Assembly: GCA_040772905.1 (NCBI GenBank)
Contig: JAXGXJ010000005.1
Coordinates: 70,149 to 134,148 of the forward strand
Reading direction: 5' to 3'
Source: Thermoleophilia bacterium
Lineage (GTDB): Bacteria > Actinomycetota > Thermoleophilia > RBG-16-64-13
Length of the DNA stretch: 64,000 nt
Position numbers and translations under genes: made by a program. Below the pieces are notes generated by a model. It ran no database searches. It saw nothing but the letters and a program-made list of their open reading frames with translations, and was not told the origin of the DNA. Below, piece by piece: positions 23,309 to 44,442 of this stretch (the first letter of the stretch is position 1; each line of letters begins with the position of its first letter).

Positions 23309-23593
23309 CAATGCTGTCTGTCAAAACGGGGCAAGCCCAGTGCAAGTCTGGTTGGTGTTCGAAGACACCGAGAGTCAACAACCGGCCTACAGTCTCACGG
23401 TCATGATCGAGGCAGGTGCGGCAACCGTAACGGGCATCGACCCGGGGTTGGTCGCGGGCCCGCAGGGTGGGTGACAGCCCATAGGGCGCGCGGGCATGCG
23501 GGCAAGCGGATGTCAAGTTCCGGTACCCGTGTTACACCCTGGCTCCGGTACCTTTGTTACAGTGAATTCGGCCCGGGCGCGAAGTGTCGCTTT

Positions 23594-24226: not shown

Positions 24227-24228
24227 GG

Positions 24229-27084: not shown

Positions 27085-27158
27085 GGCGTCGACCTCCCCC
27101 GATAAGAGCCATTTCTGACCGTATCGGAAGGATTGGGACCGGAGGCCAAGACGGGGGA

Positions 27159-27261
27159 AAGTGTCACATAGGTACCGGAGCCAGTGTCGCCCAGGTACCG
27201 GAGCCGCGTCCCAGAGTGTCACATAGCTACCGGAGCCAATGTGTCAACTATGTACCGGGAC
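27159..27261. repeat. four tandem ~23-bp subterminal repeats at the right end of the IS481-like element
   Basis: AGTGTCACATAGGTACCGGAGCC, AGTGTCGCCCAGGTACCGGAGCC, AGTGTCACATAGCTACCGGAGCC and ATGTGTCAACTATGTACCGGGACC, read directly from the sequence. Confidence 0.7.
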
Positions 27262-28522: not shown

Positions 28523-29539
28523 CTAACCCGCGGCCGGCCAGTAGAGCCGGATCAGTGGCACGAGTGCTCGTGTGTCCGTATCCAGCTGCTCGTAGTTCTC
28601 GACTAGTAGGCTGACCACCTCGTCCACATCCAGAAGCGTAACCGGCACAGTAGCTCGATCGGCCTCGTACTTGGCCTCCTTGCTGAACCCGCCGATGCTG
28701 ACATACAGGCCCCGGTCGCCCGAACGAAGCCCACCGAGGAAGGAACGAAGACCTGGGGCGCCTATCTGCTCCTTGGGCCGGTGTTTGACTTCAACAACAA
28801 TGCGAGGCGATTCCAGGCCCAAGCCGTCGGGAGAGGCCACGATATCTCGGCCCTGATCGCTGCCTCGAGGCGAGACACGCGTCTTGTAGCCCATCGCGCG
28901 CAATATGCCGGCAACAAGCTCCTGCATCTGCTCCCAGTCCAGAGCCACCACTTTGTCCTTGATGAACTCGTGCGCTTTTAGTGCGGTCTCTTCACGAAGG
29001 AGTTCAAGTTCATCCTTGGGGGTCTCTTCTCCATTTGCCGGCTTCTCCTCCCCCTCACCACTCAATCGACGCTCAAGTTCAGAGGCGATCTCCGCTGGCA
29101 CAAGGAAGATCGTGCTGATGGCTCCCAGGCTGTTCTTGGCCCCGGTCGAGAGCTCGTCTCGGGGCACGGAACCGAGCCACTCAACCTCGCGGACATGAGG
29201 GTAGGGGTCTTGTCCGATCTTCACGGTCTCTGGCCGGTACTGATACGAGCCGACTATCGAGCCAATCGAGTACTCGCGCTTCTCGGGATCATATGTGACC
29301 ACTCGGTCTCCAGGAGCAAACTCGAGCAGGAACCGAGAGAGTTGGCCTGCAGAAGCAGCCACCTGGCCGGGCCGAAACTCGGGGAACTCTGCACGAACAA
29401 GGTCGCGAAGCTCTTTCGAGGTCTTCACGGTCGAAAGATCTGTGTAGTCGAGGAACCCCACGGCTACCAATGAATGCTGCCTGAAGTCGTCAACAAGCGC
29501 TCCGTCGCGCCCGGCGCGAACCATCCAAGTCTTGCTCAA
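28523..29539 (-). CDS. mrr: Mrr-like type IV restriction endonuclease
   Basis: 338 aa with an Mrr N-terminal winged-helix domain and C-terminal Mrr_cat pattern (DWEQMQELVAGILRAMGY...GSDQGRDIVA...VVEVKH). Confidence 0.75.
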   Translation of the reverse strand: MSKTWMVRAGRDGALVDDFRQHSLVAVGFLDYTDLSTVKTSKELRDLVRAEFPEFRPGQVAASAGQLSRFLLEFAPGDRVVTYDPEKREYSIGSIVGSYQYRPETVKIGQDPYPHVREVEWLGSVPRDELSTGAKNSLGAISTIFLVPAEIASELERRLSGEGEEKPANGEETPKDELELLREETALKAHEFIKDKVVALDWEQMQELVAGILRAMGYKTRVSPRGSDQGRDIVASPDGLGLESPRIVVEVKHRPKEQIGAPGLRSFLGGLRSGDRGLYVSIGGFSKEAKYEADRATVPVTLLDVDEVVSLLVENYEQLDTDTRALVPLIRLYWPAAG

Positions 29540-29578: not shown

Positions 29579-31741
29579 TCAGGACCCGAAATGCTCCGCC
29601 ACATACTGCAGCGCGTCCTGTGTGTTGAGCAGCCGCGTCGAGTTGTTGAACCTTACGTAGAGATCGGTCTCGATGCCTCTCTTCACGAAGACCGCCGTAC
29701 GGCTGGGTTCGAGGTCGACCCGGCAGACGTCATGGCCCTCGATTGTCTGGAACGTGACGCTCAGATTCGCCAAGGCCGGCTTGCCCACGGCGATCTCAAG
29801 CAGATCAGTCAACCAGTTCTCGAAGCCGTCGCGGCCGCGGCCCTTGACCAGCTTGTAGTCATTCTCGAGGCCGATCGGCTCTCCGTCGTCCTTCACACCG
29901 ATCAGCAGCGTGCCGCCCTCGGCGTTGAGGAAGCCGGCGATCGTCCGCACGATGGTCCGCTCGATCTCTTCGTCTCGGTCGCCCTTCTTGTAGCTCCAGC
30001 GAGCCGACGACTTGAACTCGACTCTCTTCCCCTCCCCCGCCGCTATCAGCTCGACGATGCCGGGGCGTGCCGCTCCGGACGACGGCGCATGGGATCCGTC
30101 TTCAGATTCGCCCGGATGCTCAACATCTGGCAGCTCTGCTTCGCCGTCGGCCGCCTGATGGTCGCCTGGCGCAGCCCCGACCCGCAGTCGCGGGCTGGCA
30201 TACTCGGGGTACTCGCGCTCTTCGGGCGTCAGGACCGTCGTGTCAACGCCACCGTCAACCCCCCGATACACGAAGTCATGCCGAGCAAAGGTGTCATCGA
30301 GGCGCAGGATGTGTTCCCGTACCCGCCGGCGCGATTCCATGGCCAGGGCCAGTAGCTCTTCGATTTCCTCTGCGGTCGCGTCCCCGTGCGGATACAGCAG
30401 CTTCATCAAGCCGGAGAAAGTCTTCTCCAGTCCGGTCTGATCGCGGGTCGATAGCTCCGACACCAGCTCAAAGCGATCGTTGTAGGCGCTCGTGAAGTCC
30501 TCGGTGCGCTGGTGTTTCAGGATCTCGGCCAGATAGTCGACGATGAAGCCGTAGCCACTGGTGAACAGGTCGCTGCTAACGGGCGACACCTCCCACCCGG
30601 GCAGGTAGGCGTGGAGCCGGTCCAGGAACGCCGAGTCGATGTACTTGTCGGGGAGCGGCTCGAAGAAGTGGGAGTGCCGCAGCATATAGGGCATGGGCTT
30701 CTTCGTGTTGCCCATGAAGACCATCGACGCCTCGGCGGTGAGCTGTTCGATGCCCCGCGAGAAAGACTTGTTGGCCATGAAGTTCTTCATGATGTCGACC
30801 AGGTTCTTGTCGACGTTCTTGTCCTTGCCGGCGAATTCATCGAAGCAGATGCAGTCCCAGTAGCCGACGAGCCCGATCTTGCCGGTGGCGTTGTTCACGA
30901 AGAGCTTGGCCACGCTCACCTCGGCCCCGGAGATGAGGATCCCGTGGGGCGAGAACTCGGCGTAGATGTGGGACTTGCCGGTGCCCTTGGGCCCCAGCTC
31001 GATGAGGTTGTAGTTGCGCTCGCAGTAGGGCACTAGCCGCATCAGCTGCAAGAGCTTCCCGCGACGGCTGAACGCATCCGGGTTGAGGCCGATGCTCTGG
31101 AGGAGGACACCCATCCACTCCTCGGTGGAGAAGTTGGCCCGGGCGGCCAGGAACTCCTCGTAGTCGGCCCGTGAGACTTGGATGGGTTTCAGGCTCTCTA
31201 TGTGCCATGGGCAGGCCTTGGGCTCCTCGCTCAGCTCGTAGGCAAGCTCCGTGATGCACCAGATCCCCCCCACCAACAGCTTCGGATGCCGGCGGATGAG
31301 GTCGTCGGCGATGGGGACGTTCTTGAGCCCGAGATTGCTGAACTTGGCTTCGTAGAAGCCGCCCTTGTCGTTCAGCTCGGCGGCCACCTTGTCGATGACC
31401 TTGTGGCTGCCGCGCTCCTTGATAGTCGACTTGACCAGCTCAGCTTGATTGCGGTGGACGTAGTGCTTGGCGAGGATGCGTTGCACCGACTCCAGCCCGG
31501 CCTTAAGAGCATCGAGATCGTCGGTGGCGCAGTGCTGCCCCAGCAGGTATTCGAGCACATAGGTGGGCACCACCGCGTTCTGCTTCAGGCCCTTGGTCAG
31601 GTCCTTGCGCACCACCAACCCGGGGAACTGCTCGAGGATCTTGCGATCCAGCGGCCCCAGCGTCACCGGGGTCGAAACGGCGGCTTCCAGCGGGTCGATG
31701 ATCCTCTCTTCAGGGTTCTCAGACATCGAAATCACTCTCAA
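29579..31741 (-). CDS. brxL: BREX BrxL-like AAA+ protein with C-terminal AlbA_2/Schlafen-like domain in place of the Lon-protease domain
   Basis: N-terminal ~520 aa show BrxL family signatures (LDRKILEQFPGLVVRKDL, VVPTYVLEYLLGQ, ELGPKGTGKSHIY, LVGYWDCICFDEFAGK). After a low-complexity linker the last ~170 aa read EFKSS...IAGFLNAEGGTLLIGVKDDGEPIG, typical of AlbA_2. Confidence 0.65.
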   Translation of the reverse strand: MRVISMSENPEERIIDPLEAAVSTPVTLGPLDRKILEQFPGLVVRKDLTKGLKQNAVVPTYVLEYLLGQHCATDDLDALKAGLESVQRILAKHYVHRNQAELVKSTIKERGSHKVIDKVAAELNDKGGFYEAKFSNLGLKNVPIADDLIRRHPKLLVGGIWCITELAYELSEEPKACPWHIESLKPIQVSRADYEEFLAARANFSTEEWMGVLLQSIGLNPDAFSRRGKLLQLMRLVPYCERNYNLIELGPKGTGKSHIYAEFSPHGILISGAEVSVAKLFVNNATGKIGLVGYWDCICFDEFAGKDKNVDKNLVDIMKNFMANKSFSRGIEQLTAEASMVFMGNTKKPMPYMLRHSHFFEPLPDKYIDSAFLDRLHAYLPGWEVSPVSSDLFTSGYGFIVDYLAEILKHQRTEDFTSAYNDRFELVSELSTRDQTGLEKTFSGLMKLLYPHGDATAEEIEELLALAMESRRRVREHILRLDDTFARHDFVYRGVDGGVDTTVLTPEEREYPEYASPRLRVGAAPGDHQAADGEAELPDVEHPGESEDGSHAPSSGAARPGIVELIAAGEGKRVEFKSSARWSYKKGDRDEEIERTIVRTIAGFLNAEGGTLLIGVKDDGEPIGLENDYKLVKGRGRDGFENWLTDLLEIAVGKPALANLSVTFQTIEGHDVCRVDLEPSRTAVFVKRGIETDLYVRFNNSTRLLNTQDALQYVAEHFGS

Positions 31742-34208
31742 ACGGCTTCTGCAGTTTCACCTTGTGGGTCTTGTAGATGGCGGTCTGGCTGGTGCCGGGG
31801 ATGGTCTCCTCCAAGCGGACCTCGACCTCCTTGCCATTGTAGTCATCGGCGGCCCGGGACAAAGTCAGGCCCACCTTCTTCTCCCGCAGACGCGGCTCCT
31901 CATCGGCCAGGTCGAAGGTGAAGGAGTGGACATCAGAGATGATCTTACCGTCGGACGCGTACACGCCCACCGTCAGGATCCTGGGCAAGGTCTTCTCGGC
32001 CACGGGCTGCAGTTGGTAGAGCGCCAGCGTGAGCTGCCCGGTCGTGATCTTGCTGGGGGCACGGAGAATATCCACCTCCACCCGTTCGGTGTCATCCGAC
32101 CGAGCTTTATGGATGCGTACCACCGGCACCACTACTTCCTGCAGGCTCAGTCCGCCATGCACGTAGCGCTTGCCCGAGCCGCTCAGGGGGAAGCGCCCCA
32201 GCGAGAGCGGGAAGGTCGCCTGCCAGTCCCCGCTCAAGCCCAGGTCGGTCGCGGCGAACGTCTTCAGCGCCGGGTTCTTGGCGATGTTGCGGCCGATAGC
32301 GAAGCGCCGGTTCCTCATGAGCCACTCACCAGCCGCAGGCAGCGGCAGGTCATCGGCTTCGGCAACCTCCGACTGCTGGAAGAGGAAGCCGTGATCGGCG
32401 GTCAGCAGCATGTTGTTGCCGTTGGCGTTGGCGATCTTGCGAAGGATCTGCATGAGCTCCTGCAGTGCCGTCTCCACCGCCTCAGCGGTCTTGGCCTCAG
32501 TAGCCGATGAGTCGCCCACCTTGTCGATGGTGTTATGGAAGATGTAGATGACATCGTGGTCGCGCATGAGCGCGCGCCCCTCGGTCTTGGTGTTCATCTC
32601 GAGGAAGGTCTCTGCCTGGATGGCCGTCGCCCTCCCCCCCACAGCGGCCGCCAGAATCTGTCTGCGTGCCTCGGTTCCGGAGGCCGGTTTGCCGTCCATG
32701 AGCGCGGTTCCGTCGGCCGGCTGGATGGTGCGTTCATTTCCGGGCAGAAGCGAGGCCATGCCCAGTTGTGTGTATGAGGGGAGCGAGGCGAGTACCACCT
32801 CCAGCTGCGCCGTCCAACGGTTCTCGCTCTGGATGCGGGCGACTAACTCCGCCGCTGCCTCGTAGCGCAGGCCGTCAGACACCACCACGAACACCTTCTG
32901 ACCCTTGTCCAGGAAGGGCTTCACGTGTCGCTCGAAGAACGCGGTCTGCGGCACCAGACGATCACCCCGCCAGGTGGTCAAATCGCGCACCCGGTCGCCC
33001 CACCGATCAGCGAGAGGCAGCAGGAAGGTGTTGACATACGCCTTCTCCACCCAATCGGTCACGCACTTGGTCACAGCCACCTGACCATAGCGCCGCTGGT
33101 GATAGCAGAAGCGCCGGTAGGCGTTGTCTATCTGCTGCCAAGTGGCGACGTAGCGGGAGACTCCGGCATCCACGCTGTCCACGTGAAGCTCGGTGGCATC
33201 GAGGAGCTCGCGCAGCCGGATGGCCTGGGTAAGAGCTTCGTAGCCATCTGCGTGGTCGCCGAACCAGAAGGACTTGCGCCGAGCCTCTAACGTCGCCGAG
33301 AGAGCCGCGCTCGCCCCTCCCTTCTCGAAGCTCCCACACGCTCGGTGGATGATGAAGCGTTCGAAGGCGGCGAAGGTATCCGAGTGCTCGATCTGCCGGA
33401 GGTCGTCCAGGGCGTCCAATTGACCACTGATGTGAAGATCCGCCTCCAGTGCGCCGGACCATCGCCGGAAGGCGGGCCCGTGGCTCTGGCTGTCCTTCCA
33501 TCTCTGGAGAAACACGCGCGCATGAAGATCGAGAGAGACCCCCGAATCGAGCGGATTAGCCCACCGGAAAAGCATCGTGGCGAAATCACGGAGGGTCGGC
33601 TTGTCGCTTGCGTATCCGAAACGAAGGCCCACCTCCTTCCAGAAGGCCCCGACCAGGTTGGCCTGTCCGAAACGCTCCTCAACCGGATCGAGCAGGGCAT
33701 CGCCGGCGTCCCGGCTAAGGAAGGCTAGAAGCAGCGAGTCCACATCGGCTTCGGTGCCGGCCAGGACAGCCATCATCTTGAGACGGAGGCTGCGGGCTTC
33801 CTCCGCGGCTGTGAGCATCGGTTTCAGCATTTGGATCTGCTTGGCGTTGAAGAACCCGATATGCTCCTCGATCACGGGACGAAACTCATAGGGCAGACCG
33901 ACGTCCTGGAGGATGAGAGAAGCCCGGTCAGCTTTGAACTCATGGCCTTGGAGGCGCAGGTCGAGAAGCCAGTCCTCCATGTCTCTGGGGCGCTCACTGG
34001 GGAAGTAGAGAAGATACCGCGCGCCGCGGTCGGGATCGCCGTGGATGGCTACCTTGACCGAGAACTCGTCACCCTCGACCCTGAGCTTTGTCACCCCCGC
34101 GCTCTCGAATTCCTCGAAGGCGCTCGACCACTCCCGCTTGGGGTCGTACCAGAACACCAGGCGATGGCGCAGGAACACACGCTCGAGGCTGTCGGCGACG
34201 CGACTCAC
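31719..34208 (-). CDS. pglZ: BREX alkaline-phosphatase-superfamily protein PglZ
   Basis: 829 aa. N-terminal LVFWYDP signature and PglZ domain (VVVSDGLRYE, TADHGF). Confidence 0.85.
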   Translation of the reverse strand: MSRVADSLERVFLRHRLVFWYDPKREWSSAFEEFESAGVTKLRVEGDEFSVKVAIHGDPDRGARYLLYFPSERPRDMEDWLLDLRLQGHEFKADRASLILQDVGLPYEFRPVIEEHIGFFNAKQIQMLKPMLTAAEEARSLRLKMMAVLAGTEADVDSLLLAFLSRDAGDALLDPVEERFGQANLVGAFWKEVGLRFGYASDKPTLRDFATMLFRWANPLDSGVSLDLHARVFLQRWKDSQSHGPAFRRWSGALEADLHISGQLDALDDLRQIEHSDTFAAFERFIIHRACGSFEKGGASAALSATLEARRKSFWFGDHADGYEALTQAIRLRELLDATELHVDSVDAGVSRYVATWQQIDNAYRRFCYHQRRYGQVAVTKCVTDWVEKAYVNTFLLPLADRWGDRVRDLTTWRGDRLVPQTAFFERHVKPFLDKGQKVFVVVSDGLRYEAAAELVARIQSENRWTAQLEVVLASLPSYTQLGMASLLPGNERTIQPADGTALMDGKPASGTEARRQILAAAVGGRATAIQAETFLEMNTKTEGRALMRDHDVIYIFHNTIDKVGDSSATEAKTAEAVETALQELMQILRKIANANGNNMLLTADHGFLFQQSEVAEADDLPLPAAGEWLMRNRRFAIGRNIAKNPALKTFAATDLGLSGDWQATFPLSLGRFPLSGSGKRYVHGGLSLQEVVVPVVRIHKARSDDTERVEVDILRAPSKITTGQLTLALYQLQPVAEKTLPRILTVGVYASDGKIISDVHSFTFDLADEEPRLREKKVGLTLSRAADDYNGKEVEVRLEETIPGTSQTAIYKTHKVKLQKPFESDFDV

Positions 34209-35100
34209 TCGTCAGATTCCTTCGCCGCCAGTCCCGGGATGGGCGCCAGAGCAGGTCCCAGCTTGAGGTAGTTCACCTTGACCCCATCATCCAGGTCCAG
34301 CTCGATACGCTCCTGGGCCAGCGGCAGGAGCACCTCCCTTTCATACTCCTCGCACTCGCGGATGGTCTTGCCGAGCGCGTCGGCTTCTTTGCGATACCGA
34401 GCCTTGTCATGAGGCGAGGTGGACTCGCTGGCCAGGAGGTGCTCCAGGTGCTCCAGGCGATAGTGCATCTTGGAGATGTACTCGCGCAGGTAGCGGTTGA
34501 GCACGCGGTTGGCCGTGTCGCGGGTGTAGCGGTGGAGGTAGACGAGGCACTGGAAGCCCTTCTTGGGACTCTGGAACATCCAGTAGATGGGCCGCTTCTT
34601 GTGAGTCTGGAGATGGTCCTTGTAGAAGTCGGTGGCAAAGTACTTGCGCAGGTCCTTGCCCAATGACTCCTCGATGAAGCGCAGGTTCTCATCCAGGGTC
34701 GAATCCCCAAACGTGACCCGCAGGAAGTTCCGCGTGCGAGCCACGATGTCATCCTCGAACCATTCTCCGCTTAAGACCGGGATGATGGCATCTTCATCGG
34801 GGACAAAGCTGAGCTCATCCAGGGGCCTCCCCACTCTTGCCAGGTAGCCCTCCAGAGTGTCGCCGGCATCGGCCAGGATGAGGCCGGGCTTATCCAGGGA
34901 GTAGCGGCCCATCATGCAACCCACGGCGTGGGAGAGGAATCCAGCGATGTCCTTACGTCTGTCGGGACGAGCCAGGGTGATCTCCTCTTCCGGGACCTCA
35001 GGAGTGAGCTCATCCTGAAGGCCATAGGCTTCGATCCACAGGCGGTTGTTCTCCGTCTCTAGCTGCTGCATACGGGCAATGTTGTCCCTGTCGTTGCCGA
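34205..35100 (-). pseudogene. pglX: BREX methyltransferase PglX, C-terminal fragment (gene split by IS21 insertion)
   Basis: Contains the PglX C-terminal signature KRPIYWMFQSPKKGFQCLVYLHRYTRDT. Overlaps the pglZ start by 4 bp. Upstream coding continuity is broken at the IS21 left IR (35101). Confidence 0.75.
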
Positions 35101-35199
35101 TGTGAAACTGACCCATTAGTGCCGGTCTGAAACTGACCCACCTTGAAATGACGTAGGCTTCTCGGTTGGTTCTCTTGGAATCTGCCGAGGAGGGGTCAG

Positions 35200-36192
35200 T
35201 TGATCAAACTGGAGGAATGGGTGGACATCGTTTCCCTTCATAGGCAGGGTCTTTCTATTCGCGCGATCGCTCGCAGACTGGGCGTCTCCCGCAACACGGT
35301 ACGAGCCGCGCTTCGTCGGCCGGGTCCGCCGACGAGAGCCCCACAACAGCGGCCGCCGTCCAAGCTGGATCCCTATCGGGACTATCTCCTGGCCCGGCTG
35401 GCCGAGTTCCCGGAACTGCCGGCGGAAGCGCTCTTCGAGGAGATCCAGGCTCTCGGCTATTCCGGCGGCCGCACCATCCTCAAGGAGTTCACCCGGCCTT
35501 ATCGCATCCGCAGGAAAGAGCCAGTGGTGCGCTTTGAGACCCCGCCCGGCCGCCAGGCCCAGTGTGACTGGGCTCACCTCGGCACTCACGTCATCCGCGG
35601 CGAGCTCACAGCGCTCTATCTCTTCGTGATGATCCTCGGCTTCTCCCGGGTCCTCTATGCCGAAGTGGTCACCCGCACCGACATCGACACGTTCCTGGAA
35701 CTCCACGTGCACGCCTTCCGCGCCTTCGGGGGCATGCCCGAGGAGATCCTCTATGACAACCAGAAGGTGGTGGTGCTCAGCCGCTCATCTGACGGCCCGG
35801 TCTTTCATCCCGCTCTTCTTGCCTTCGCTGGCCAGTTCGGCTTCAAGCCGCGCCTCTGCCGGCCCTATCGGGCCCGCACCAAGGGGAAGGTGGAGCGCTC
35901 CATCGGCTATATCCGGGACCGCTTCTTCTGTGGAAGGACGTTCATCGATATCCCCGATCTCAACCACCAGCTCGCGATGTGGCTTGAGACCGCCAACGCC
36001 CGGGAGCATAAGACCACCGGTGAACGGCCCTGTGATCGGCTGCTCAGGGAGAAGCTCCTGCCCTTCGCCGCCGCCCGGCCCTGGCGGGGTTCAGAGGCGC
36101 CGATCGTGCCTCCCCGGCGCCCCTCCTTCCGTTTCGCCTCTCCCGAGGTCGAGCGGCGTTCTCTCTCGGTCTATGAGGAGGTGTGCTCGTGA
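35200..36192 (+). CDS. istA: IS21-family transposase IstA
   Basis: 330 aa. N-terminal HTH (LSIRAIARRLGVSRNTVR), rve core (CDWAHLG...YDNQKVVV...KGKVERS). TTG start after GAGGAGGGG. Confidence 0.8.
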   Translation: MIKLEEWVDIVSLHRQGLSIRAIARRLGVSRNTVRAALRRPGPPTRAPQQRPPSKLDPYRDYLLARLAEFPELPAEALFEEIQALGYSGGRTILKEFTRPYRIRRKEPVVRFETPPGRQAQCDWAHLGTHVIRGELTALYLFVMILGFSRVLYAEVVTRTDIDTFLELHVHAFRAFGGMPEEILYDNQKVVVLSRSSDGPVFHPALLAFAGQFGFKPRLCRPYRARTKGKVERSIGYIRDRFFCGRTFIDIPDLNHQLAMWLETANAREHKTTGERPCDRLLREKLLPFAAARPWRGSEAPIVPPRRPSFRFASPEVERRSLSVYEEVCS

Positions 36193-36974
36193 ACCTGGAG
36201 ATGGAGCGCATCGCACTTCTCGCCGACCGGCTGCACCTGCCCCAGCTCACCGCCAGCCTGCCGCTTCTGGCCGAGGAGGCCGCCCGCAAAGAGCAGAGCT
36301 ACAGCGAGTTTCTGCTGGGGCTCTTGGAAGAGGAGGTCCGGGCCGCGGACGTCCGAGCCCAGGAGATGATGCTCAGGCTCGCGTCGTTCCCCTTCCGGCG
36401 CACCCTCGATGACTTCGACTTCTCCTTTCAGCCCTCGGTCAGCAAAAAGCAGCTCAGGGAGCTTGCGAGTTGCGCCTATGTGGAGCGGGCGGAGAACGTC
36501 ATCCTCCTCGGGCCGCCGGGCGTGGGCAAGACGCACCTGGCCGTCGCTCTCGGCCTCGCTGCCATCCACAAGCGCCTGCACGTGAAGTTCACCACCGTGG
36601 CCGCCATGGTCGCCAACCTCACCCAGGCGCTGAAGGCCGGCACCTATCCCGCCCGGCTTCGCACCTATCTTCGGCCCAGCGTCCTCATTCTTGATGAGAT
36701 CGGCTTTCTTCCTCTGGAAGCGGGGCAGGCCAGTCTGCTCTTCGAAGTCATCTCCCGCCGATACGAGCGCGGCTCCATCATCCTCACCTCGAACAAGAGC
36801 TATGCCGAATGGGCAGAGATCTTCTCCGGCGACGAGGTGATCGCCACAGCCATGCTCGACCGGCTCCTTCACCACGCGACCACCATCATCATCAAGGGCC
36901 AGAGCTACCGGCTCAAAGACAAACAGCGGGCCGGCCTGGTTGCTCGAAGAAAGGGGAACGAGGCAAGCGAATGA
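36183..36974 (+). CDS. istB: IS21-family helper ATPase IstB
   Basis: 263 aa. Walker A GPPGVGKTHLAVALG, Walker B LILDEIGF. Overlaps the istA stop. Confidence 0.85.
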   Translation: MLVNLEMERIALLADRLHLPQLTASLPLLAEEAARKEQSYSEFLLGLLEEEVRAADVRAQEMMLRLASFPFRRTLDDFDFSFQPSVSKKQLRELASCAYVERAENVILLGPPGVGKTHLAVALGLAAIHKRLHVKFTTVAAMVANLTQALKAGTYPARLRTYLRPSVLILDEIGFLPLEAGQASLLFEVISRRYERGSIILTSNKSYAEWAEIFSGDEVIATAMLDRLLHHATTIIIKGQSYRLKDKQRAGLVARRKGNEASE

Positions 36975-37055
36975 CGCAAAGGGGGTCAGATTTCGATCGG
37001 CACTGAACCTTAGGGTGGGTCAGTTTCAGACCGGCAGAAAAGGGTCAACTACACA

Positions 37056-39689
37056 CCGGCATTGACAGTCCCGGAGGTAGCGCTCCCATTTCTGCCACGA
37101 TGCTTCTAGCGTAGGCCCTTTGAGTTCGGGGCGCAGGAGAGGGAGGTCTTGGAAGTCCCAGGAGGTCTCGAAGTTATTCCAATCGGTGCGGGCGAGGGAG
37201 GTCAAGGAACGGGCGAGGGCCGAAGTCCCCTTGGCCACGTGGGCCAGGGGAATCTTCGCAACGTCTCCAGGTACGTAGTTCATTGTTGGAGCCAGAGCGC
37301 CCAGACAGGCTCGTGCCACGACGGAGTTGAGAACCAACAGGATCAGTTCAAGATTCTCCTCGCAGAACATTGACGAACCACCTGAACTGAAGAGAAAGCC
37401 AGGCGGCGTATGACGGAAACTCGCGGGCCCAGTCGTGACAGAGCTCCAAGTAATATTGGGTTTGAAGTAGTATTCCTCGCTCCGTATCTCCTTCGTGTAG
37501 CTTCCTCCGCCGTATCGGGCGACGATGAATGATTTCAGCTCTTTGCCATCATCTTTCCAGTTGATCAGCGTCTCGTTGAGCCCAAACCACCTTCGGTTGC
37601 CGCCGCCCTTGTTGAGAGGGAACCATTTTCCAGGGGACTCGCGGCTCATGTTGCGGCCGGCGACGCCGAATTCCGTGCTGCTCCATCCGACCTCAAACCA
37701 AAGTCGGACAAAGCTTGCGTCGTCCAGTGTAACTAGCCCTTTTCGCACGACAGCGGCACTCGCGAGGGGCGGGAATCCTTCAAAGGCAGCGACGAGCGCG
37801 GGACCGCACCAGTAGGCGACCGGACTCCCGGGAATCTTGTCCATGTCTCTGGCCGCAATATCAAACCGGAGGCCCCCTCCTGACGCGTTGGCCAACCTGA
37901 AGAGACCTTCTTTGGCTGCCTCGCTGTCGCCGTCGACCAAGCGGAAGTAGCGGCCGCGCCCGTTCCGCAAGGACCCTTTGAACGCGACGAACGCAGTCGC
38001 CTGGACTACCTCACCGCCAATAGTGTCGAACGCGCGTGGGCCCAGATGCGCCATGGTTACGATGAACTTCGACGAGAGCAACTGCCGTCGCAATGCTTCA
38101 TAGCTCGAGAGAAACATCCAGTTCTGCATAGTGATTAGGGCGAAATAGGCGTTATCACGAGCCAGAGTGGCGCATCGTTCGATGAACATGGCGAACAGGT
38201 CGGATTTCGAGTCGGGGAACCTCTCAGAACTGAAGCGGCGAACACAGTCGTTCATCGCCCCACCCCCCAGATACGGCGGGTTGGTAACCACCACGTGGTA
38301 GCGCTGGGTGAGCATCTCCGCTTGGGTGAGGGCGAGGAGAACCTTGCGCTGGGTCTCTGCAAGGAGGAGGTCAGCGGGAGCGGGAGCGTTCGCTATTTCG
38401 GTCTTGAGCTGGATGATCTCCGGCTCAGTGAGGATGGGCTGGACGAGCGAGCCGAAGGTGGAGGTGTTCTCCCGGAACTGATAGACCTGTTGGAGGACCT
38501 TAGCGGTGAAGAGACGGGTGAGGCCGCTTGAGCTGAGCCAGGCCTTGAGCTCCTCAGCCTCGAAGGGAACGTCTTCCAGGCACACGACTTGCGGTTGGAT
38601 CGCTCCCCGGAAGGCGTTTCTCGACTTCTCCCGAGCTTTGGCGAGGAGAGCGAACTGGGCGAGCTGGGTAGCCCGAGGGCAGATCTCCAGGCCATAGAGG
38701 TTGTGGGTGAGGATCTTTGTAGGGATATCGGCGGGGGCGTAGCCCTCCTCCTCATAGATCTGATAGAGAAGGTCGAAGGCGTAGGTGAGCATGTGCCCGG
38801 AGCCGCAGGCGGGGTCGAGAAGCCGGATGTCTTCTGGACGCTCAACGGTGAGGGAGTCAGCCGGAGCTTGCCCGTCCGGGTCTTCGACATAGTACGGCAT
38901 GGAGGCGCGAAGAGATGAGCGGGGACGGGAGCGAAGCCACAGCCGCCCCAGGGAGTTCTCGACGAGATAGCGCACGATCCAGTGCGGGGTGAAGAGCTGG
39001 GTGACGGCGGGGATGTCCTCGCTGGGGACGGCCGTCTTGCGGGCCATCACCTGGTCTTTCTTCTCGGAGATGTAGAACTGATAGAGCCAGCCGAGGATCT
39101 CCACCTCAGCGCAGTCCTCGTCAGTGATCTCGCTCCGGAAACCGTGGGCCACGGAGTGGTCGGTGAGGAGGTCATCGGGAAGAAGGAGTTCGGTCTCGTC
39201 ATCGAGGCGCTCAAAGAGAAGGGGCAAGAGCGCGTGGTAGTAGCGGCAGGCGGCGAGCACCAGGTGGCGATAGACCTCGCCCTGGGGATCGGACGAAGGC
39301 AGGCGGCCATCGAGAAGATCTCCGAGCCGAGCGGGATCGGTATAGGGCCTCAGCTGATCGGGGATAACCTCGGTCCGAACCAGACGCAGAATCTCAGGCT
39401 GGGTCTCGGAAGCCGAAGCGGGCGTGACGATCCGCACCCGGAAAGGGTGCCAGCCGCGGGCGTCTAGGAATCGCAGGGCCGCCAGGCGGTTGAACCAAGT
39501 GTAGGCGACTCGCTCGATGAGCTGAGAGCGGTTCTGTACGGACTGGGCCCGGAGGCGCTCCACCTGTGCCGACGCAGCCCGCAGATCGGGTGTGTCGGCA
39601 GTGAGGACGTAGTCAAGCTTGCGTTCGACGGCCTCCAGCAGGTCGCGGCGGGCCTGTTGGGCGAAGGGCTTGAGGGAGGAGGTATCCAT
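37056..39689 (-). pseudogene. pglX: BREX methyltransferase PglX, N-terminal ~870-aa fragment (split by IS21)
   Basis: N-terminal hallmark VAYTWFNRLAALRFLDARGW, then an N6-adenine methyltransferase core (VVTNPPYLGGG). The reading frame runs into the IS21 right IR and stops at 37026. Confidence 0.75.
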
Positions 39690-39694: not shown

Positions 39695-42600
39695 TCAGAG
39701 TGTGACCTTGTTGCCTTTGGCAAGCTCAACCGCGATGACCGACCGGAGTGCATCCAGCCAGCGCTCCAGTTCCGCTTCGGTCGAAATGAACGCCAAGTCC
39801 AAGTGCGGCTTCAGGCTTGTCACGGGAACATACCGGACTGGAGGCGGAGGCGGTTCATCCTCCGGCGTCTCTGGTGTTGTCAGAGCAGCCACGAGCGCAA
39901 GCTGGGCAGGGTACTCCTCGGAGAGATAGCGCGCGAGCCGGTTGCGGACTCCGCTGATGTATTCCTCCGCATCTATCGCCTCGCGAGCCGCGGCGGATTT
40001 CTGCATCACCTGCGCCTGCTGAGTGTCGCTGAGCTGCGAGTGTTCCGGCAGGGCTCTGATCTTCGCCTCGCATTCCGCGATGGCGGTCAGTGCCTTGTGA
40101 CACTCGTCGGTGAGCAGGGCATCGATGAGACGCTTCACATCCGCCATAGCCACTCTAGCCTTGGGCAGCAGCTCGCCTCGATAGGGGGCACCCGATTCCG
40201 CGACGGCCCTCAGAGGCTCGAGATTCTCCGGCGGGACGTCTCCGAAGTTCGCCCTCTCGGTCGCCAGGAAGGTGATGACCTCGTCATAGGCGATGCGCTG
40301 CTTGCCGTGCATGAAGCCCTTGATAGGAGCGATGGTCTCCTGCTTGGCCGTGAGCAGCTCTTGGGAGAACTCATCCAGCTGGTTGAGGAGATACGGGTAG
40401 TCCTTCTGAGAAATGGCTTTGAGCCGGTTCTTCACGGGCTCTAGGTCGCTCAGGAACGGGTACGTCGCCTTCTGATCGAGCAGCAATTCCAGGTCACGCG
40501 CCTCGCACGCAAGCGCCTCCAGGGTCAGCTGGGCGACCGACCGGGCATCGGTCCCGTCGTTCGGGCGATCAAAGAAGTCGTGATGGAAGTTCTTGAGCGC
40601 CGCGACCACCTCGGGCGGCCACTGCTCCTGCAGACTGATGCGCACCGTTCCATGATGCTTGGAGTTCCGAAATGCGTCGAAAGCCCCTTGCGCATCGAGC
40701 AGCTCCGCCTGCCTGAGTTCCAGCTTCCCCATGCGGAATAGCCGAGCTACTTGCACGAGAACACCCATGACAGGCCAGCCGTACGGCCGCTTCCCGAAGT
40801 CGCGCACCATCTCCTCGACGGTGACCCGTTCCTTGTCCGTCTTCTGAGTGCGAAGCACGTTCGTGAGGACCTCTTGTTCAGCCTCGGAGAGCGTGTGCCC
40901 GCCGCCGGCCATGAGATCGTCGGGGTCGAGCAGGGTCTTTCTTAATTGCTCTTCGTTGTAGGTGCCCCTGAGCATCCGCAGGCTGGGGTAGGCGAACGAG
41001 ATCAGCTCCTGGCCGGCCTTCTGGAAGCGCGTCCGTGCTTCACCCTCCCCAATGTCGGTGAGCTTCGAGCCGTTCAGGTAGAGGACGGCTTTCCCCATAA
41101 GATCCTCGCAACGCTTCTGCAGCTCGCTCCTGTTGGTGCTGTTCTGCTGACTGCGGCGATCGAGGATCTCGCGACGGGTGGAATCGAAGTGCGTCCCCGG
41201 GTTCTGCTGGATGTACTTGCGCGTCTTGATGAACAGACGAGCGTCGTCTATCACGCGAGCATCAGCGGGCAGCACGGCCAGGAGTTCAGCCTTACCCGTA
41301 TTCTGCGCCGCCAGCGTGTACAGATCGCCGTGATGGGGATGGTCGGCGGTGATCACATTGACGGAGAGCTCCGCATCCTTGCCCACCAGGTGGTCGTCCA
41401 GGCGACGGGCGTAGGAGTAGTCCTGGCCGTTCACGTCGTAGCGGATCTTGGGGTCGCGCAGGATGTCGGCGAAGAAGATGTCGGACAGGAGCTTGGTCTG
41501 CTCGGACTCGTCGATCTCCGTGCCCTTGATCTCTGTCTCGATGTCCTTCTCGGTGTCGGTCAGGAACTCGTAGAGCTCGCCGTTCCGCTGCAGGTAGGAC
41601 TGCTGCTCGAGGAGGTTGAGGGCCTCCCGCACCGCCTTCTCGTGAGCCTGCATGTTGATGTCCGGCCGGTCGATCAGCAGGATGGCCACGTTTCGCGGAC
41701 TGGGCTTAAACGATGTGACCCATTTGAGCAAGAAGAGCGCCTTGAGGATGCGGGCAGCGAGCGGATCGTCCAGGTGATCCTCCGCCTGTTGTACGGAGGT
41801 CTGCATGTCGCCGCGGATGGTCGCCGACATGCCGTCGAACATCTTGTCGAAGGTGGCCAGACCACCCACGTCCTGTCCACTCAGATATACGACCACATCT
41901 TGAAACACCTCGAGCATCGACCGCTCGCCCACAGACGTCTGCCTGCCGGTGAACGCATCGTGGCGAGAGAGCTGCTCAATGGCCCGCTGGAAGAGGTCGA
42001 ACTGATAGGGGACGAAGGGGTAGTAACTGCAGAACTCATCGCTCCCACGCCAGGTTCGGTAGGGCATCGAGCCATCGCCGAACCGATACATGGTCTGCAG
42101 GTTCTCCTTCTCCCTGTCGTAGACGCTGGTGAGAGCCTCGGGCTCCGCTTCAGTCTTGGCCAGCAGGCGCCTCTGGATGACCTCGCGCACGTCGGCGCTC
42201 GTAAGATTCACGCGGCTCTTGAAGCGCCCCTGGATCTTGGTGAAGTCGTCACCCTCTCCCCTGCGCAGCTCTCCCAGGACGTTCTTGAGATCGCCCTGGG
42301 AGGTGACGAACACCCAGGCCCTGCCCTGGCAGATGGTGGCCAATGACTCGGCAATGGTCTGCAGGTTGAGCATGAGCCGAGAGTCCTGACCGATGAACTG
42401 CCCCACCTCGTCGGCGAAGAAGTTGAGGCGGAAGTCCGGCCCCTGTCTGTCGATGTAAGCCTTCACCCGCCTGGCGAAGTCCTCGGGCGAGACCTTGTAA
42501 CCCTCACGCTGCCGATCGAAGAGCTTCAGGCCCTCGTCGTACGATTTGCCGAAGAACTCAGCGTAGACCTTGGCGAACGTCTCGTTCTCCAGGGTCTCCA

Positions 42601-43191
42601 GCACCGGCAGGTCCTGTTCCCAACTCCGACCGCTCACCGCCGCGTAGGTCTGCTTGAAGGCCTCAAGCTCGCCTCGAGAGTCAAGGTCGTACTCGAACTG
42701 GGCGATGTGACCCTGCTTGGCGTAGTAGCCCTGGAGCTCGTTGAGGACCTTGACGAACACCTCGAGTACGGCCGACTCGCGATCGCCACCGATGGCATCG
42801 GACTTCTGGTCGATGTTGAAGAGGATGCTGCGCGAGGGAATCTTGATGGCCTTCTGGAGATCCGCCCGCAGGAACTCGTCGTCGAGCTTGGGTATGAGGA
42901 TGTCGGCGGCCTGAGCTCCGCTGGGCAGCGTCCGGTTCTCCAGCACCAGCGAGAGGATCGCGAGGAGGTGCGACTTTCCGGAGCCGAAGAAGCCCAGCGA
43001 GATCGAACTCCGTTGGCCTTCGTCCTCTCCTGGCTCACGTACTGCTCCATGAGGGCAGTTAGACCCTTCGAGATCTCCCCGGTGACGACGCCATTCCTCG
43101 ACCTCGTTTTCGAGATTGCGATCGTCATCGGCTTTGATGACCCCTTCGATGGACGGTAGCCAGGTTTACTGAACAGGTCACGTATCTTCAT
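39695..43191 (-). pseudogene. brxC: BREX P-loop ATPase BrxC with three apparent frameshifts in the first ~180 nt
   Basis: ATG at 43191 gives MKIRDLFSKP. Expected continuation PSIEGVIKADDDRNLENEVEEW is in another frame. VVTGEISKGLTALMEQYVSQERTKANGV is back in the first frame. ISLGFFGSGKSHLL... and the remaining 1080 aa are again in the second frame. Confidence 0.65.
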
Positions 43192-43198: not shown

Positions 43199-43795
43199 TC
43201 ACGGTCGATAGTGAGCCAGATTGAACGCGCGGTAGTACGGGCGATAGAGCGGCGGCGTGGCCTGCGATCCGAAGAGCCTGAGCACGGAGGCACCATTCTC
43301 TTCCTGCCTGTACTCCCCGGGAAAGAACATCACGACAGGCCGCTTGACCATCGCGGGCTGGAGCGACTCCAAGATGGTGTGGGTGCGCAGGAACGGGAAC
43401 ACCCTGCCCACACCTAGCAGTAGCGCCAGCTGTACGCCGTCGTCCCCTACCTTCTTCATGAGCCGGGGGATGAGCCGGGTCTTCGGGTCGGCCAGGTTGG
43501 ACATCATGTCAAGGAGCTTCTGCTTGCCGATGGAGCGCTCCTTCTCCAGGATCGGCTGAAGTCGGCCCTCCTCCTCTAGTTGCTCGAGGATGAGATCGAA
43601 GAGGTCCACCACGGCCACCGAAACGCCGTGAGTGCGAAGCCGCGTGGCCAGGTGGTCGATCATGATCCGCACCTTGTCCTCGTCCTGAGGCTCGTAGGTC
43701 TCGATGAAGATGGGGACCTCGTTCGCGAGTCCCTTCATGGACAGGAAGTGCGGATGGCTGAGAATGCGGAACAGGCGCTCGCTCTGGTCAGCCAC
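43199..43795 (-). CDS. brxB: BREX protein BrxB (DUF1788 family)
   Basis: 198 aa; position between brxA and brxC and family-like pattern (NEVPIFIETYEPQDE...VAVVDLFDLILEQL). Confidence 0.65.
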   Translation of the reverse strand: MADQSERLFRILSHPHFLSMKGLANEVPIFIETYEPQDEDKVRIMIDHLATRLRTHGVSVAVVDLFDLILEQLEEEGRLQPILEKERSIGKQKLLDMMSNLADPKTRLIPRLMKKVGDDGVQLALLLGVGRVFPFLRTHTILESLQPAMVKRPVVMFFPGEYRQEENGASVLRLFGSQATPPLYRPYYRAFNLAHYRP

Positions 43796-43797: not shown

Positions 43798-44442
43798 TTA
43801 AGCCCCTATCCTGCCGATTTCGTCATCGGGAATGAGAAACCCCGCGAGCCAGCACCGATCCTCGGCAATGATGGCCGAGCGGACCTCCGGGGGGAGCAGA
43901 GCCCGACGCAAGTCGAAGTCCTTCGGACCCTCACCCAGGATGCCGACCTCGCGGAGCATCCTGAAGAGCACCTGGCGGATCTTGGCTTTCGTGCTGGCTG
44001 TCAACTCCTGCACCTCGGGATGGGCCAGGCCCTCCGTCGCCAGGAAGTCCTCGTAATCCGAGGGCCGGAGCACCCGGTCATGGCCCTCCATCTTGGCACG
44101 AAGCGATTCGGAGGCGAAGGCATAGATGAACGGATTCAGCTTGAGCACCGACAGCCACGCGATGGCCCTGCGGGCGTCTGCCGAGCCTTGAGCGAGGATC
44201 TCCAACTGCCCACGCGAGAGTGTCTGCAGGCGCTGACGCACCTCCCGCTCCATACGCACACCACTTGCCGGATTCTTCGCTTGCAGCAGATTCTCAGACA
44301 GCGCTCGCCGGCGGGTCTCGTCCCAGTCACCGGACTCGAGGTACAACTCAGCGACGATCCGGGCCAGTTCTGGACGCAGCGAGGCGGCCGTGAAGGCCAG
44401 CGAGTACTTCTGGGTGCCGCAAGAATTAGGAAGCATCCGCAC
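43798..44442 (-). CDS. brxA: BREX protein BrxA (DUF1819 family)
   Basis: 214 aa; first gene of the cluster; KYSLAFTAASL...IVAELYLESGDWDE pattern typical of BrxA. Confidence 0.65.
   Translation of the reverse strand: MRMLPNSCGTQKYSLAFTAASLRPELARIVAELYLESGDWDETRRRALSENLLQAKNPASGVRMEREVRQRLQTLSRGQLEILAQGSADARRAIAWLSVLKLNPFIYAFASESLRAKMEGHDRVLRPSDYEDFLATEGLAHPEVQELTASTKAKIRQVLFRMLREVGILGEGPKDFDLRRALLPPEVRSAIIAEDRCWLAGFLIPDDEIGRIGA

What the first reader, a model, noticed from the sequence alone, without database searches (positions are those of the whole stretch)
29579..31741. BrxL-like protein whose Lon-protease domain is replaced by an AlbA_2/Schlafen-like domain
The first ~520 aa carry BrxL-specific motifs. 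After a linker, the last ~170 aa (GIVELIAAGEGKRVEFKSSARW...IAGFLNAEGGTLLIGVKDDGEPIGLEN...) are AlbA_2/Schlafen-type (putative nucleic-acid-binding), not a Lon S16 protease. I do not know this BrxL architecture as described, and cannot check without a database.
Basis: partly seen in the sequence, partly recalled or inferred. Interest (0 to 1): 0.6.

Follow-up and report, generated by a model that had tools for sequence, protein, structure and literature searches.

The report
BREX BrxL carrying a Schlafen nuclease domain
The last gene of a BREX phage-defence operon encodes a BrxL motor protein whose usual Lon-like tail is replaced by a Schlafen-type nuclease domain with an intact active-site motif. 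This architecture is common in databases, is named "Lon-related" there, and is not described in the papers I could search.

Summary
The gene on the minus strand at 29579-31741 (probable ATG at 31726, 715 aa) has three Pfam domains: BrxL_N, BrxL_ATPase and SLFN_AlbA_2, the last after a ~45-residue acidic linker predicted to be disordered. There is no Lon hit. The C-terminal 173 residues fold confidently (pLDDT 95), and the 32 Foldseek PDB hits at E<=0.001 are all Schlafen/AlbA_2 structures. The catalytic E-x4-E-x-K motif and the downstream Asp align to SLFN11 E209/E214/D252. They are kept in all 17 close fusion homologues.

The gene sits after pglZ in a type 1 BREX operon, with an 8-nt overlap. 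The same arrangement occurs in intact loci elsewhere. The nearest backbones carry an HKD/PLD (MIT_C) tail. A second, large clade on a Lon-type backbone carries the Schlafen tail in all 120 best hits. One protein, seen on two contigs, has HKD and Schlafen domains in tandem.

Best reading: BrxL's C-terminus is a swappable effector slot, filled here by a Schlafen nuclease that most likely cleaves tRNA. This is a new variant of a known kind.

In this genome the operon looks dead. pglX is split by an IS21-family element, and the brxC 5' end is frameshifted.

The parts
29579..31726 (-). brxL-Slfn coding sequence (715 aa plus stop). The ORF listing extends it to a TTG at 31741.
   Evidence: The ATG overlaps the pglZ stop by 8 nt (ATGTCTGA).
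31238..31630 (-). BrxL_N domain (ORF residues 38-168)
   Evidence: Pfam PF20442, E 8e-46
30275..31207 (-). BrxL AAA+ ATPase domain (residues 179-489). Walker A GPKGTGKS lies at 30971-30994; Walker B is ICFDE.
   Evidence: Pfam PF13337, E 3e-124. Motifs read and invariant in alignment A2.
30062..30193 (-). Acidic low-complexity linker (PRLRVGAAPGDHQAADGEAELPDVEHPGESEDGSHAPSSGAARP). The boundary of the domain swap lies at or in this linker.
   Evidence: pLDDT <50 in the full-length model. Homology to HKD-type BrxLs ends just before it.
29582..30061 (-). Single-lobe Schlafen/AlbA_2 nuclease-type domain (residues 561-720)
   Evidence: Pfam PF04326. AF2 pLDDT 95.4. Foldseek PDB hits with E<=0.001 are all Schlafen/AlbA_2. 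Profile against PDB gives SLFN14/11/13/12/5 and CbCash.
30011..30034 (-). Catalytic motif E570-G-K-R-V-E575-F-K577 (Ex4ExK)
   Evidence: Aligns to SLFN11 E209...E214-F-K. Conserved in 17/17 close fusions and in at least 90% of 121 domain homologues.
29888..29890 (-). Codon of D618, the third acidic active-site residue (GVKD)
   Evidence: Aligns to SLFN11 D252. Conserved in at least 90% of alignment A1 and in 17/17 fusions.
31719..34208 (-). pglZ (BREX-1 type A, 829 aa)
   Evidence: TIGR02687, 675 bits. Pfam PglZ.
34205..35088 (-). pglX 3' fragment (profile positions 919-1208 of 1210)
35089..37067 (+). IS21-family insertion sequence inside pglX (istA 35200-36192, istB 36183-36974). It has 55-nt terminal inverted repeats and a 5-bp target duplication (GTCCC at 35084-35088 and 37068-37072).
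37068..39689 (-). pglX 5' fragment (profile positions 1-918)
39695..43191 (-). brxC. The first ~65 codons need three frame changes to be read (42974-43191).
43199..43795 (-). brxB
   Evidence: Pfam BrxB. PADLOC.
43798..44442 (-). brxA
   Evidence: Pfam BrxA. PADLOC.
28523..29539 (-). Neighbouring Mrr-type restriction endonuclease (PADLOC candidate PDC-S02). This is variable cargo and is not conserved next to brxL-Slfn in other loci.
   Evidence: Other loci have different neighbours.

Best explanation
This is the BrxL component of a type 1 BREX system in which the C-terminal 'tail' position holds a single-lobe Schlafen (AlbA_2) metal-dependent endonuclease domain, tethered by a flexible acidic linker. 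In canonical BrxL that position holds an inactive Lon-like domain, and in about a third of BrxLs an HKD/PLD DNase. Shown here: the domain architecture; the Schlafen fold; conservation of the catalytic motif under purifying selection; the canonical operon position; and recurrence of the fusion on two different BrxL backbones, plus a tandem HKD+Schlafen form. [quoted passage not shown] Assembly brings the tethered Schlafen domains close enough to pair. Single-lobe prokaryotic Schlafen domains need such oligomer-driven pairing to form an active cleft (Cash and SLFN-pAgo papers). The paired domains then cleave nucleic acid. The target is most probably tRNA, as for every biochemically characterised Schlafen nuclease. 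This would add a translation shut-off layer to BREX. In this particular genome the operon is probably inactive, because pglX is interrupted by an IS and the brxC 5' end is frameshifted.
For: Architecture and scores. Fold: AF2 pLDDT 95.4; all 32 Foldseek PDB hits at E<=0.001 are AlbA_2/Schlafen (3LMM, SAMD9 tRNase domain, SLFN5/11/12/13/14, 2KYY); profile search hits SLFN14 at 5e-7, SLFN11 at 9e-7 and CbCash at 6e-4. Active site: E570/E575/K577/D618 align to SLFN11 E209/E214/K/D252. The motif is present in 17/17 close fusions, in at least 90% of 121 homologues and in at least 118/120 members of the second clade. Selection: dN/dS of the Schlafen part is 0.095 against L004 and 0.16 against L001. 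Operon context: intact brxB-brxC-pglX-pglZ-brxL(Slfn) loci in L002, L004, L005, an ENA contig and L006. Effector-slot logic: the nearest backbones carry MIT_C/HKD; P0368 has MIT_C and Schlafen in tandem after pglZ on two independent contigs. The same Schlafen subfamily sits at the C-terminus of GmrSD_N/DUF262 proteins (no GmrSD_C domain detected in them), and also on HsdR and Eco57I-type enzymes. Literature: Ex4(E/D)xK is essential; RorSlfn5 is a tRNase; a DUF262-Slfn fusion defends against T7 (PMC13056530). CbCash is a tRNase activated by oligomerisation (PMC13462974). SLFN-pAgo needs ATPase-driven dimerisation of single-lobe SLFN domains (bioRxiv 10.64898/2026.05.29.728809). BrxL rings form on dsDNA through the NTD and ATPase domains, and the CTD is peripheral (PMC10164562).
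Against: There is no biochemical or genetic test of any BrxL-Slfn protein. The Ex4ExK motif is conserved across almost all AlbA_2 domains, including ones of unknown function, so its presence is necessary but not sufficient for activity. The partners of this Schlafen subfamily are mostly DNA-restriction enzymes, and the domain it displaces here is a DNase. A DNA substrate is therefore a serious alternative to tRNA. The assembly-driven activation step is pure inference. The full-length model was poor in the ATPase region (mean pLDDT 60), and no multimer could be modelled. The copy in this window sits in a broken operon.
Confidence: 0.55

Rival explanations
1. The Schlafen domain is a DNA endonuclease. 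It cuts or nicks the unmodified phage DNA on which BrxL has loaded, doing the same job as the HKD domain it replaces.
For: The nearest BrxL backbones carry the HKD/PLD DNase-type domain in the same position. Relatives 44-50% identical in this Schlafen subfamily are C-terminal modules of DNA-restriction proteins: GmrSD_N/DUF262, HsdR, Eco57I/MmeI-type methyltransferases, and a helicase with an MTES_1575 REase domain. The NAR 2026 paper interprets the BrxL C-terminal HKD as a DNA-degrading backup effector.
Against: Every Schlafen nuclease whose substrate the retrieved papers report cleaves RNA or tRNA (SLFN11, RorSlfn5, CbCash, SLFN-pAgo), and SAMD9 is deposited as a tRNase domain (PDB 9O0D). 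RorSlfn5 produced no DNA damage or SOS signal. In the solved BrxL complex the C-terminal domains lie far from the DNA in the pore.
Confidence: 0.2
2. The AlbA_2 domain is non-catalytic here. It serves as a nucleic-acid-binding, sensing or ring-pairing module that takes over the structural or regulatory role of the Lon-like CTD.
For: The canonical CTD is itself catalytically dead, and it mediates tail-to-tail pairing of rings and modulates the ATPase. Several mammalian Schlafens lack catalytic residues.
Against: All catalytic residues are retained across three lineages and more than 130 sequence clusters. The tandem HKD+Schlafen protein argues for an add-on effector rather than a structural substitute. 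The long, variable, disordered linker fits poorly with a rigid ring-pairing interface.
Confidence: 0.15
3. The fusion is an artefact: a mis-assembly, a mis-called gene, or a decaying pseudogene formed by two adjacent genes.
For: The operon in this window is damaged: pglX is interrupted by an IS21-family element and brxC is frameshifted. One database protein (P0259, ROK+BrxL+AlbA_2) looks chimeric.
Against: The reading frame is uninterrupted over 715 codons. The same architecture is found in 17 clusters of clade i and in all 120 best hits of clade ii, from many independent assemblies including complete chromosomes. dN/dS is well below 1 in both halves.
Confidence: 0.02

Closest known systems
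Canonical BrxL (Acinetobacter BrxL, PDB 8EMC/8EMH; NCBIfam TIGR02653)
   Same: The N-terminal DNA-binding region and the MCM-like AAA+ ATPase match: phmmer E 6e-139 over residues 31-482. Walker A and B are intact. It is the last gene of a type 1 BREX operon, after pglZ.
   Different: The Lon-like C-terminal domain (residues ~498-679 of 8EMC), which pairs rings tail-to-tail, is absent. It is replaced by a disordered linker plus a Schlafen domain. TIGR02653 is matched only to position 485 of 675 and scores below its cut-off.
BrxL-HKD / BrxL-MIT_C variant (noted in NAR 2025 gkaf357; 1030 of 2913 BrxL-bearing taxa in NAR 2026 gkag035)
   Same: This is the closest backbone: up to 82% identity through residue ~512, followed by a similar variable acidic linker. 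The logic is the same: a predicted nuclease in the C-terminal slot.
   Different: The effector fold differs (Schlafen/AlbA_2 rather than PLD) and there is no PF16565 hit. The expected chemistry and possibly the substrate differ too.
Prokaryotic Schlafen defence proteins (pSlfn: RorSlfn5, EcoSlfn7 DUF262-Slfn; CbCash; SLFN-pAgo)
   Same: A single-lobe Schlafen domain with Ex4(E/D)xK is fused to a sensor or ATPase module. This Schlafen subfamily is also found on DUF262/GmrSD_N proteins.
   Different: The partner here is a core component of a multi-gene BREX system rather than a stand-alone sensor, and the domain is C-terminal. The main texts of the Schlafen papers I could read do not list BrxL as a partner.
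Stand-alone Schlafen-HisKinase-wHTH genes next to BREX loci (NAR 2026 gkag035; 'cluster 2' of the Cash paper)
   Same: A Schlafen nuclease is associated with BREX as a presumed backup RNase.
   Different: Those are separate accessory genes with a GHKL ATPase. Here the Schlafen domain is covalently part of BrxL.
Human SLFN11
   Same: A Schlafen tRNase is coupled in one polypeptide to a DNA-binding NTPase. The catalytic residues align.
   Different: The domain order is reversed. The Schlafen core is bilobal in SLFN11 and single-lobed here. The NTPase is an SF1 helicase-like domain in SLFN11 and an MCM-like AAA+ domain here. This is an analogy, not orthology.

Membership tests
BrxL (BREX type 1 component) | BrxL_N domain plus BrxL-type AAA+ ATPase with Walker A/B | tested here: met
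   PF20442 E 8e-46; PF13337 E 3e-124; TIGR02688 equivalog 576 bits against a cut-off of 329; GPKGTGKS and CFDE motifs
BrxL (BREX type 1 component) | Encoded at the 3' end of a brxA-brxB-brxC-pglX-pglZ operon | tested here: met
   All five partner genes were identified upstream on the same strand. The brxL ATG overlaps the pglZ stop. The order is the same in L002, L004, L005 and L006.
BrxL (BREX type 1 component) | Lon-like (catalytically inactive) C-terminal domain, as in TIGR02653 and 8EMC | tested here: not met
   No Lon family hit. TIGR02653 aligned only to position 485 of 675 and scored 569 bits against a cut-off of 628. The 8EMC match ends at residue 482. Fold search of the tail gives no Lon hit.
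BrxL (BREX type 1 component) | ATP-dependent ring assembly on dsDNA; required for restriction | not testable with these tools
   Needs biochemistry or genetics. The monomer AF2 model of the ATPase region was of low confidence.
Schlafen / AlbA_2 nuclease domain | Sequence-profile membership (PF04326) | tested here: met
   57.8 bits against a gathering cut-off of 25.3, E 2e-15. The profile of 121 homologues hits SLFN14/11/13/12/5, CbCash, 3LMM and 2KYY.
Schlafen / AlbA_2 nuclease domain | AlbA_2/Schlafen C-lobe fold | tested here: met
   AF2 pLDDT 95.4. The Foldseek hits at E<=0.001 are exclusively this fold, 31 of 32 at probability 1.00.
Schlafen / AlbA_2 nuclease domain | Catalytic Ex4(E/D)xK motif plus downstream Asp | tested here: met
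   E570, E575, K577 and D618 align to SLFN11 E209, E214, K and D252. Conserved in homologues.
Schlafen / AlbA_2 nuclease domain | Metal-dependent endoribonuclease (tRNase) activity | not testable with these tools
   Inferred only from characterised relatives.
BrxL-HKD (MIT_C) variant | C-terminal PLD/HKD domain (PF16565) | tested here: not met
   No PF16565 hit in this protein. It is present in the nearest relatives P0012 and P0040, and in tandem in P0368.
Lon protease (S16) | Lon proteolytic domain with a Ser-Lys dyad | tested here: not met
   No Lon_C or related hit at E<=0.01. The C-terminal fold is Schlafen.

The most novel reading that the evidence does not exclude
BrxL-Slfn makes BREX a DNA-sensing, tRNA-cleaving system. 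Loading of the BrxL AAA+ ring on unmodified phage DNA would be the signal that switches on a Schlafen tRNase. This would be a bacterial counterpart of the ssDNA-activated tRNase SLFN11. It would mean that BrxL in general acts as the sensor and actuator of BREX restriction, with an exchangeable output domain (none or Lon-like, HKD, Schlafen, or both). That would provide an enzymatic read-out for the still unknown trigger of BREX restriction.
Probability: 0.3. Interest if true: 0.75.

Novelty: new variant of a known kind. Interest (0 to 1): 0.5.

Why it matters
How BREX stops phage is still unresolved, and so is what BrxL contributes. BrxL binds DNA as a ring, but its canonical tail has no known activity. 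A natural BrxL family with a recognisable, mutable nuclease active site offers a direct handle. Together with the HKD variant and the tandem HKD+Schlafen form, it argues that the BrxL C-terminus is an output (effector) position. One can ask when the nuclease fires, on which substrate, and which BREX partners or DNA states are needed.

The finding also extends the list of Schlafen fusion partners to a core component of a multi-gene restriction system.

It exposes an annotation problem as well. In clade ii, the four NCBI-named members among the 120 best-matching protein clusters are all called "protease Lon-related BREX system protein BrxL", although they contain no Lon domain.

Tried and rejected
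- **Lon or S16 domain in the tail.** Searched with Pfam, NCBIfam, PADLOC, PDB sequences and fold search. Nothing was found.
- **Source genome.** P0001 is 100% identical but is not on record for context look-up. The genome-contig scan did not recover the source genome, so the organism remains unknown. The window is 62% G+C.
- **Full-length AF2 model.** The ATPase part is poor (mean pLDDT 60), probably because the alignment was shallow and too similar. I used it only for the linker and tail confidence.
- **Supplementary tables.** These might list a BrxL-Slfn architecture. The six NAR 2026 supplementary files held as text contain no Schlafen/SLFN/AlbA terms. The Schlafen papers' supplements are not held. 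Prior cataloguing, for example among pSlfn1-55, therefore cannot be excluded.
- **Single origin of the fusion.** Rejected. In an NJ tree of the N-terminal 480 residues (no bootstrap), clade i fusions fall in two groups among HKD-type BrxLs. C-terminal similarities are incongruent with that tree: P0010 and P0011 group with Sb. Synonymous divergence differs between the two halves: 0.50 against 1.21 versus L004.
- **Mrr-like gene as a conserved partner.** Rejected. The neighbours differ in every related locus.
- **Other PADLOC hits among adjacent ORFs.** Only a weak HTH control-protein match.
Full report
**Observation**

The minus-strand ORF at 29579..31741 is real: 720 aa from a TTG. The database protein P0001 is 100% identical and starts at the ATG at 31726, giving 715 aa. 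That ATG overlaps the pglZ stop codon by 8 nt (ATGTCTGA), the usual sign of translational coupling. Residue numbers below follow the 720-aa ORF.

Pfam gives three hits:
- BrxL_N, residues 38-168, E 8e-46.
- BrxL_ATPase, residues 179-489, E 3e-124.
- SLFN_AlbA_2, residues 570-705, E 2e-15, 57.8 bits against a gathering score of 25.3.

NCBIfam TIGR02688 (BrxL, a 449-position model without a tail) scores 576 bits against a cut-off of 329. TIGR02653, the 675-position "Lon-related" model, aligns only through position 485 and falls below its cut-off. The best PADLOC BrxL model is likewise matched only over positions 4-496 of 698. The solved Acinetobacter BrxL (8EMC) matches residues 31-482 only. No Lon family was found anywhere.

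**The C-terminal domain**

I folded residues 548-720 with an alignment of 121 homologues. The model has mean pLDDT 95.4. All 32 Foldseek matches in the PDB at E<=0.001 are AlbA_2/Schlafen structures: 3LMM, the SAMD9 DNA-binding/tRNase domain, SLFN5/11/12/13/14 and 2KYY. There is no Lon-like hit. A profile of the 121 homologues hits SLFN14 (5e-7), SLFN11 (9e-7), SLFN13 (3.5e-6), SLFN12, SLFN5 and the CRISPR-associated Schlafen CbCash (6e-4).

In the pairwise alignment, E570-x4-E575-F-K577 and D618 fall on SLFN11 E209, E214, K and D252. These are the Ex4ExK catalytic residues that the Schlafen papers show to be essential (PMC13056530; PMC13462974). The motif and the Asp are conserved as follows:
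- all 17 full-length close homologues with this architecture;
- at least 90% of the 121 domain homologues;
- at least 118 of 120 members of a second clade, by a strict regular expression.

dN/dS of the Schlafen segment is 0.095 against L004 and 0.16 against L001, so it is under purifying selection. It is less constrained than the ATPase part, where dN/dS is 0.03-0.07.

The domain is single-lobed and about 160 aa. It is joined to the ATPase by a ~45-residue acidic low-complexity segment. That segment has pLDDT <50 in a full-length model and varies in length and sequence among homologues. The rest of the full-length model was poor (mean pLDDT 60), and I do not use it.

**Context in the window**

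The gene is the last of a type 1 BREX operon on the minus strand:
- brxA, 43798-44442
- brxB, 43199-43795
- brxC, 39695-43191
- pglX
- pglZ, 31719-34208
- brxL-Slfn

The operon is damaged here in two ways. First, pglX is split into a 5' part (profile positions 1-918) and a 3' part (919-1208) by a 1979-bp IS21-family element at 35089-37067. The element carries istA and istB on the plus strand, 55-nt terminal inverted repeats and a perfect 5-bp target duplication. Second, the first ~65 codons of brxC can be read only with three frame changes relative to a 90%-identical BrxC. These may be real mutations or assembly indels. This copy of the system is therefore probably inactive, although brxL-Slfn itself is intact.

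Downstream lies an Mrr-type endonuclease gene (PADLOC PDC-S02). Upstream are a DUF3631 protein, an HTH protein and a tyrosine integrase, and several transposase genes lie nearby. This is a mobile defence island.

**Related loci**

Intact operons of the form brxB-brxC-pglX-pglZ-brxL(Slfn), with the same 8-nt pglZ/brxL overlap, occur in L002, L004, L005 and an ENA contig. L001 has an internally deleted BREX locus but an intact brxL-Slfn. Genes downstream of brxL differ in every locus.

**Distribution and evolution**

Among the 120 best matches to the whole protein, 17 clusters share the Schlafen tail. The rest, up to 82% identical over the N-terminal ~70%, carry PF16565 (MIT_C), a PLD/HKD domain. 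Homology between the two types runs to about residue 512 of the 715-aa protein (...VTVLTPEExxYPxxAxPR). It stops at the variable linker, after which the effector domain begins.

In a neighbour-joining tree of the N-terminal 480 residues (no support values), the Schlafen-bearing proteins form two groups among HKD-type proteins. The C-terminal domains fall into two types that do not follow that tree. Synonymous divergence from L004 is 0.50 in the N-terminal part but 1.21 in the Schlafen part. Together these indicate repeated exchange of the 3' module.

A scan of species-representative genomes found ten further loci, mostly Acidimicrobiia and one Thermoanaerobaculia. Their BrxL backbone is only ~43% identical to this one, yet it carries a Schlafen tail 44-56% identical to this one. 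Using one of them as query, all 120 best clusters (68-100% identity) have BrxL_N+BrxL_ATPase+SLFN_AlbA_2. The four NCBI-named clusters are all called "protease Lon-related BREX system protein BrxL". That backbone passes the TIGR02653 cut-off on its first 483 positions alone. So the Schlafen tail sits on both a Lon-type and an HKD-type BrxL backbone.

In a library clustered at 50% identity, at least six full-length representatives are Pfam-verified fusions. One protein, P0368 (858 aa), has MIT_C and Schlafen domains in tandem. It is found after pglZ on two independent contigs.

Relatives of this Schlafen subfamily (44-50% identity) are also C-terminal modules of other DNA-restriction proteins:
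- GmrSD_N/DUF262 proteins in which no GmrSD_C domain is detected, so the Schlafen domain appears to occupy the tail that nuclease normally forms
- HsdR
- Eco57I/MmeI-type methyltransferases
- a DUF4011 helicase carrying a restriction-endonuclease (MTES_1575) domain

**Mechanism**

Shown:
- A BrxL motor with intact Walker motifs.
- A flexibly tethered Schlafen domain with a conserved active site.
- The canonical operon position.
- Recurrent, exchangeable use of the C-terminal slot by nuclease domains.

From the literature:
- BrxL forms hexameric rings on dsDNA through its NTD and ATPase domains. The Lon-like CTD has no protease motif, lies away from the DNA and pairs rings tail-to-tail (PMC10164562).
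- The prokaryotic Schlafens characterised in the retrieved papers are tRNases that need the Ex4(E/D)xK motif.
- Single-lobe Schlafen domains become active when an attached module drives their oligomerisation. Examples are cA4-induced filaments of CbCash and ATP-driven tetramers of SLFN-pAgo.

Inferred: ring assembly of BrxL on phage DNA brings the tethered Schlafen domains together and switches on cleavage. The target is most likely tRNA, which would add a translation-arrest layer to BREX. I put 0.55 on "catalytic effector, most likely RNA-directed".

Three rivals remain:
- A DNA-directed nuclease (0.2). This is favoured by the DNase it replaces and by its DNA-restriction fusion partners.
- A non-catalytic binding or pairing domain (0.15).
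- An artefact (0.02), which the recurrence effectively excludes.

**Comparison with what is known**

NAR 2026 (PMC12839542) describes only two BrxL tails: inactive LonP, and HKD in 1030 of 2913 taxa. It mentions Schlafen only as separate Slfn-HisKinase-wHTH genes near BREX. Its six supplements held as text contain no Schlafen terms. The Menshen paper noted MIT_C on BrxL. The Schlafen papers list many partners, but not BrxL in their main texts, and their supplements were not available. Searches combining BrxL or BREX with Schlafen or AlbA found nothing else.

I therefore rate this a new variant of a known kind. It is real, widespread, mis-named in databases and apparently undescribed. Conceptually, though, it sits close to two recently published ideas: BrxL effector swapping, and Schlafen as a promiscuous defence effector. 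Interest 0.5.

Noticed in passing
window 35089-37067 (target duplications at 35084-35088 and 37068-37072): An IS21-family insertion sequence (istA 35200-36192, istB 36183-36974, plus strand) is inserted in pglX. It has 55-nt terminal inverted repeats and a perfect 5-bp target duplication, so the insertion looks recent. It should abolish BREX methylation and restriction.
   Followed up: yes
window 42974-43191: The 5' end of brxC needs three frame changes within ~200 nt to match a 90%-identical BrxC. This is either a real pseudogenisation or local assembly indels.
   Followed up: partly
window 28523-29539 (-): A 338-aa protein has an Mrr_cat restriction-endonuclease domain and matches the PADLOC candidate system PDC-S02 over its full length. 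It lies directly downstream of brxL. It is not conserved beside brxL-Slfn in other loci.
   Followed up: partly
window 37071-39689 versus 34208-35089: PglX is mosaic relative to the L004 homologue. The N-terminal 853 residues are 60% identical and the C-terminal 294 residues are 92% identical. BrxC is 90% and the BrxL N-terminal part 96% identical. This suggests exchange of the methyltransferase/recognition part.
   Followed up: no
window 44476-50095 and 22427-27222: There are island markers around the operon: a DUF3631 941-aa protein (45193-48018), an HTH protein (48345-48926) and a tyrosine integrase (48923-50095). On the other side lies a cluster of transposase genes (rve, DDE_Tnp_1, and an IstA-type Mu-transposase C-terminal fragment).
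   Followed up: partly
L033 6023-8599 and L034 1903-4479: An 858-aa BrxL has both a MIT_C (HKD/PLD) domain and a Schlafen domain in tandem. It lies after pglZ, on two independent contigs. In L033 a GmrSD gene sits before pglZ.
   Followed up: partly
L001 6723-12148: This BREX locus has brxC cut to 172 aa, no pglX and pglZ cut to 494 aa. brxL-Slfn is intact and is followed by a HEPN_Swt1 gene. It is the second decayed BREX locus that keeps this gene.
   Followed up: no
ENA contig of P0009 (no DNA held): There are two tandem full-length pglX genes in one BREX operon. Downstream of brxL-Slfn is a block of NERD/TBP-TOTE, TIR, TIR with a faint AlbA_2 signal, and Macro genes.
   Followed up: no
P0389, P0426, P0470, P0475: NCBI (and UniRef for P0389 and P0426) name clade ii BrxL-Slfn proteins 'protease Lon-related BREX system protein BrxL'. 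TIGR02653 passes its cut-off on the first 483 of 675 positions alone, so the name hides the missing Lon domain.
   Followed up: yes
P0165, P0166, P0179, P0187 and others: Many ~260-aa relatives of this Schlafen domain are named, or in one case carry a Pfam hit, as YeaQ/YmgE-type (transglycosylase-associated) membrane proteins, presumably through an N-terminal segment. This suggests membrane-anchored Schlafen proteins, mostly in Actinobacteria.
   Followed up: no
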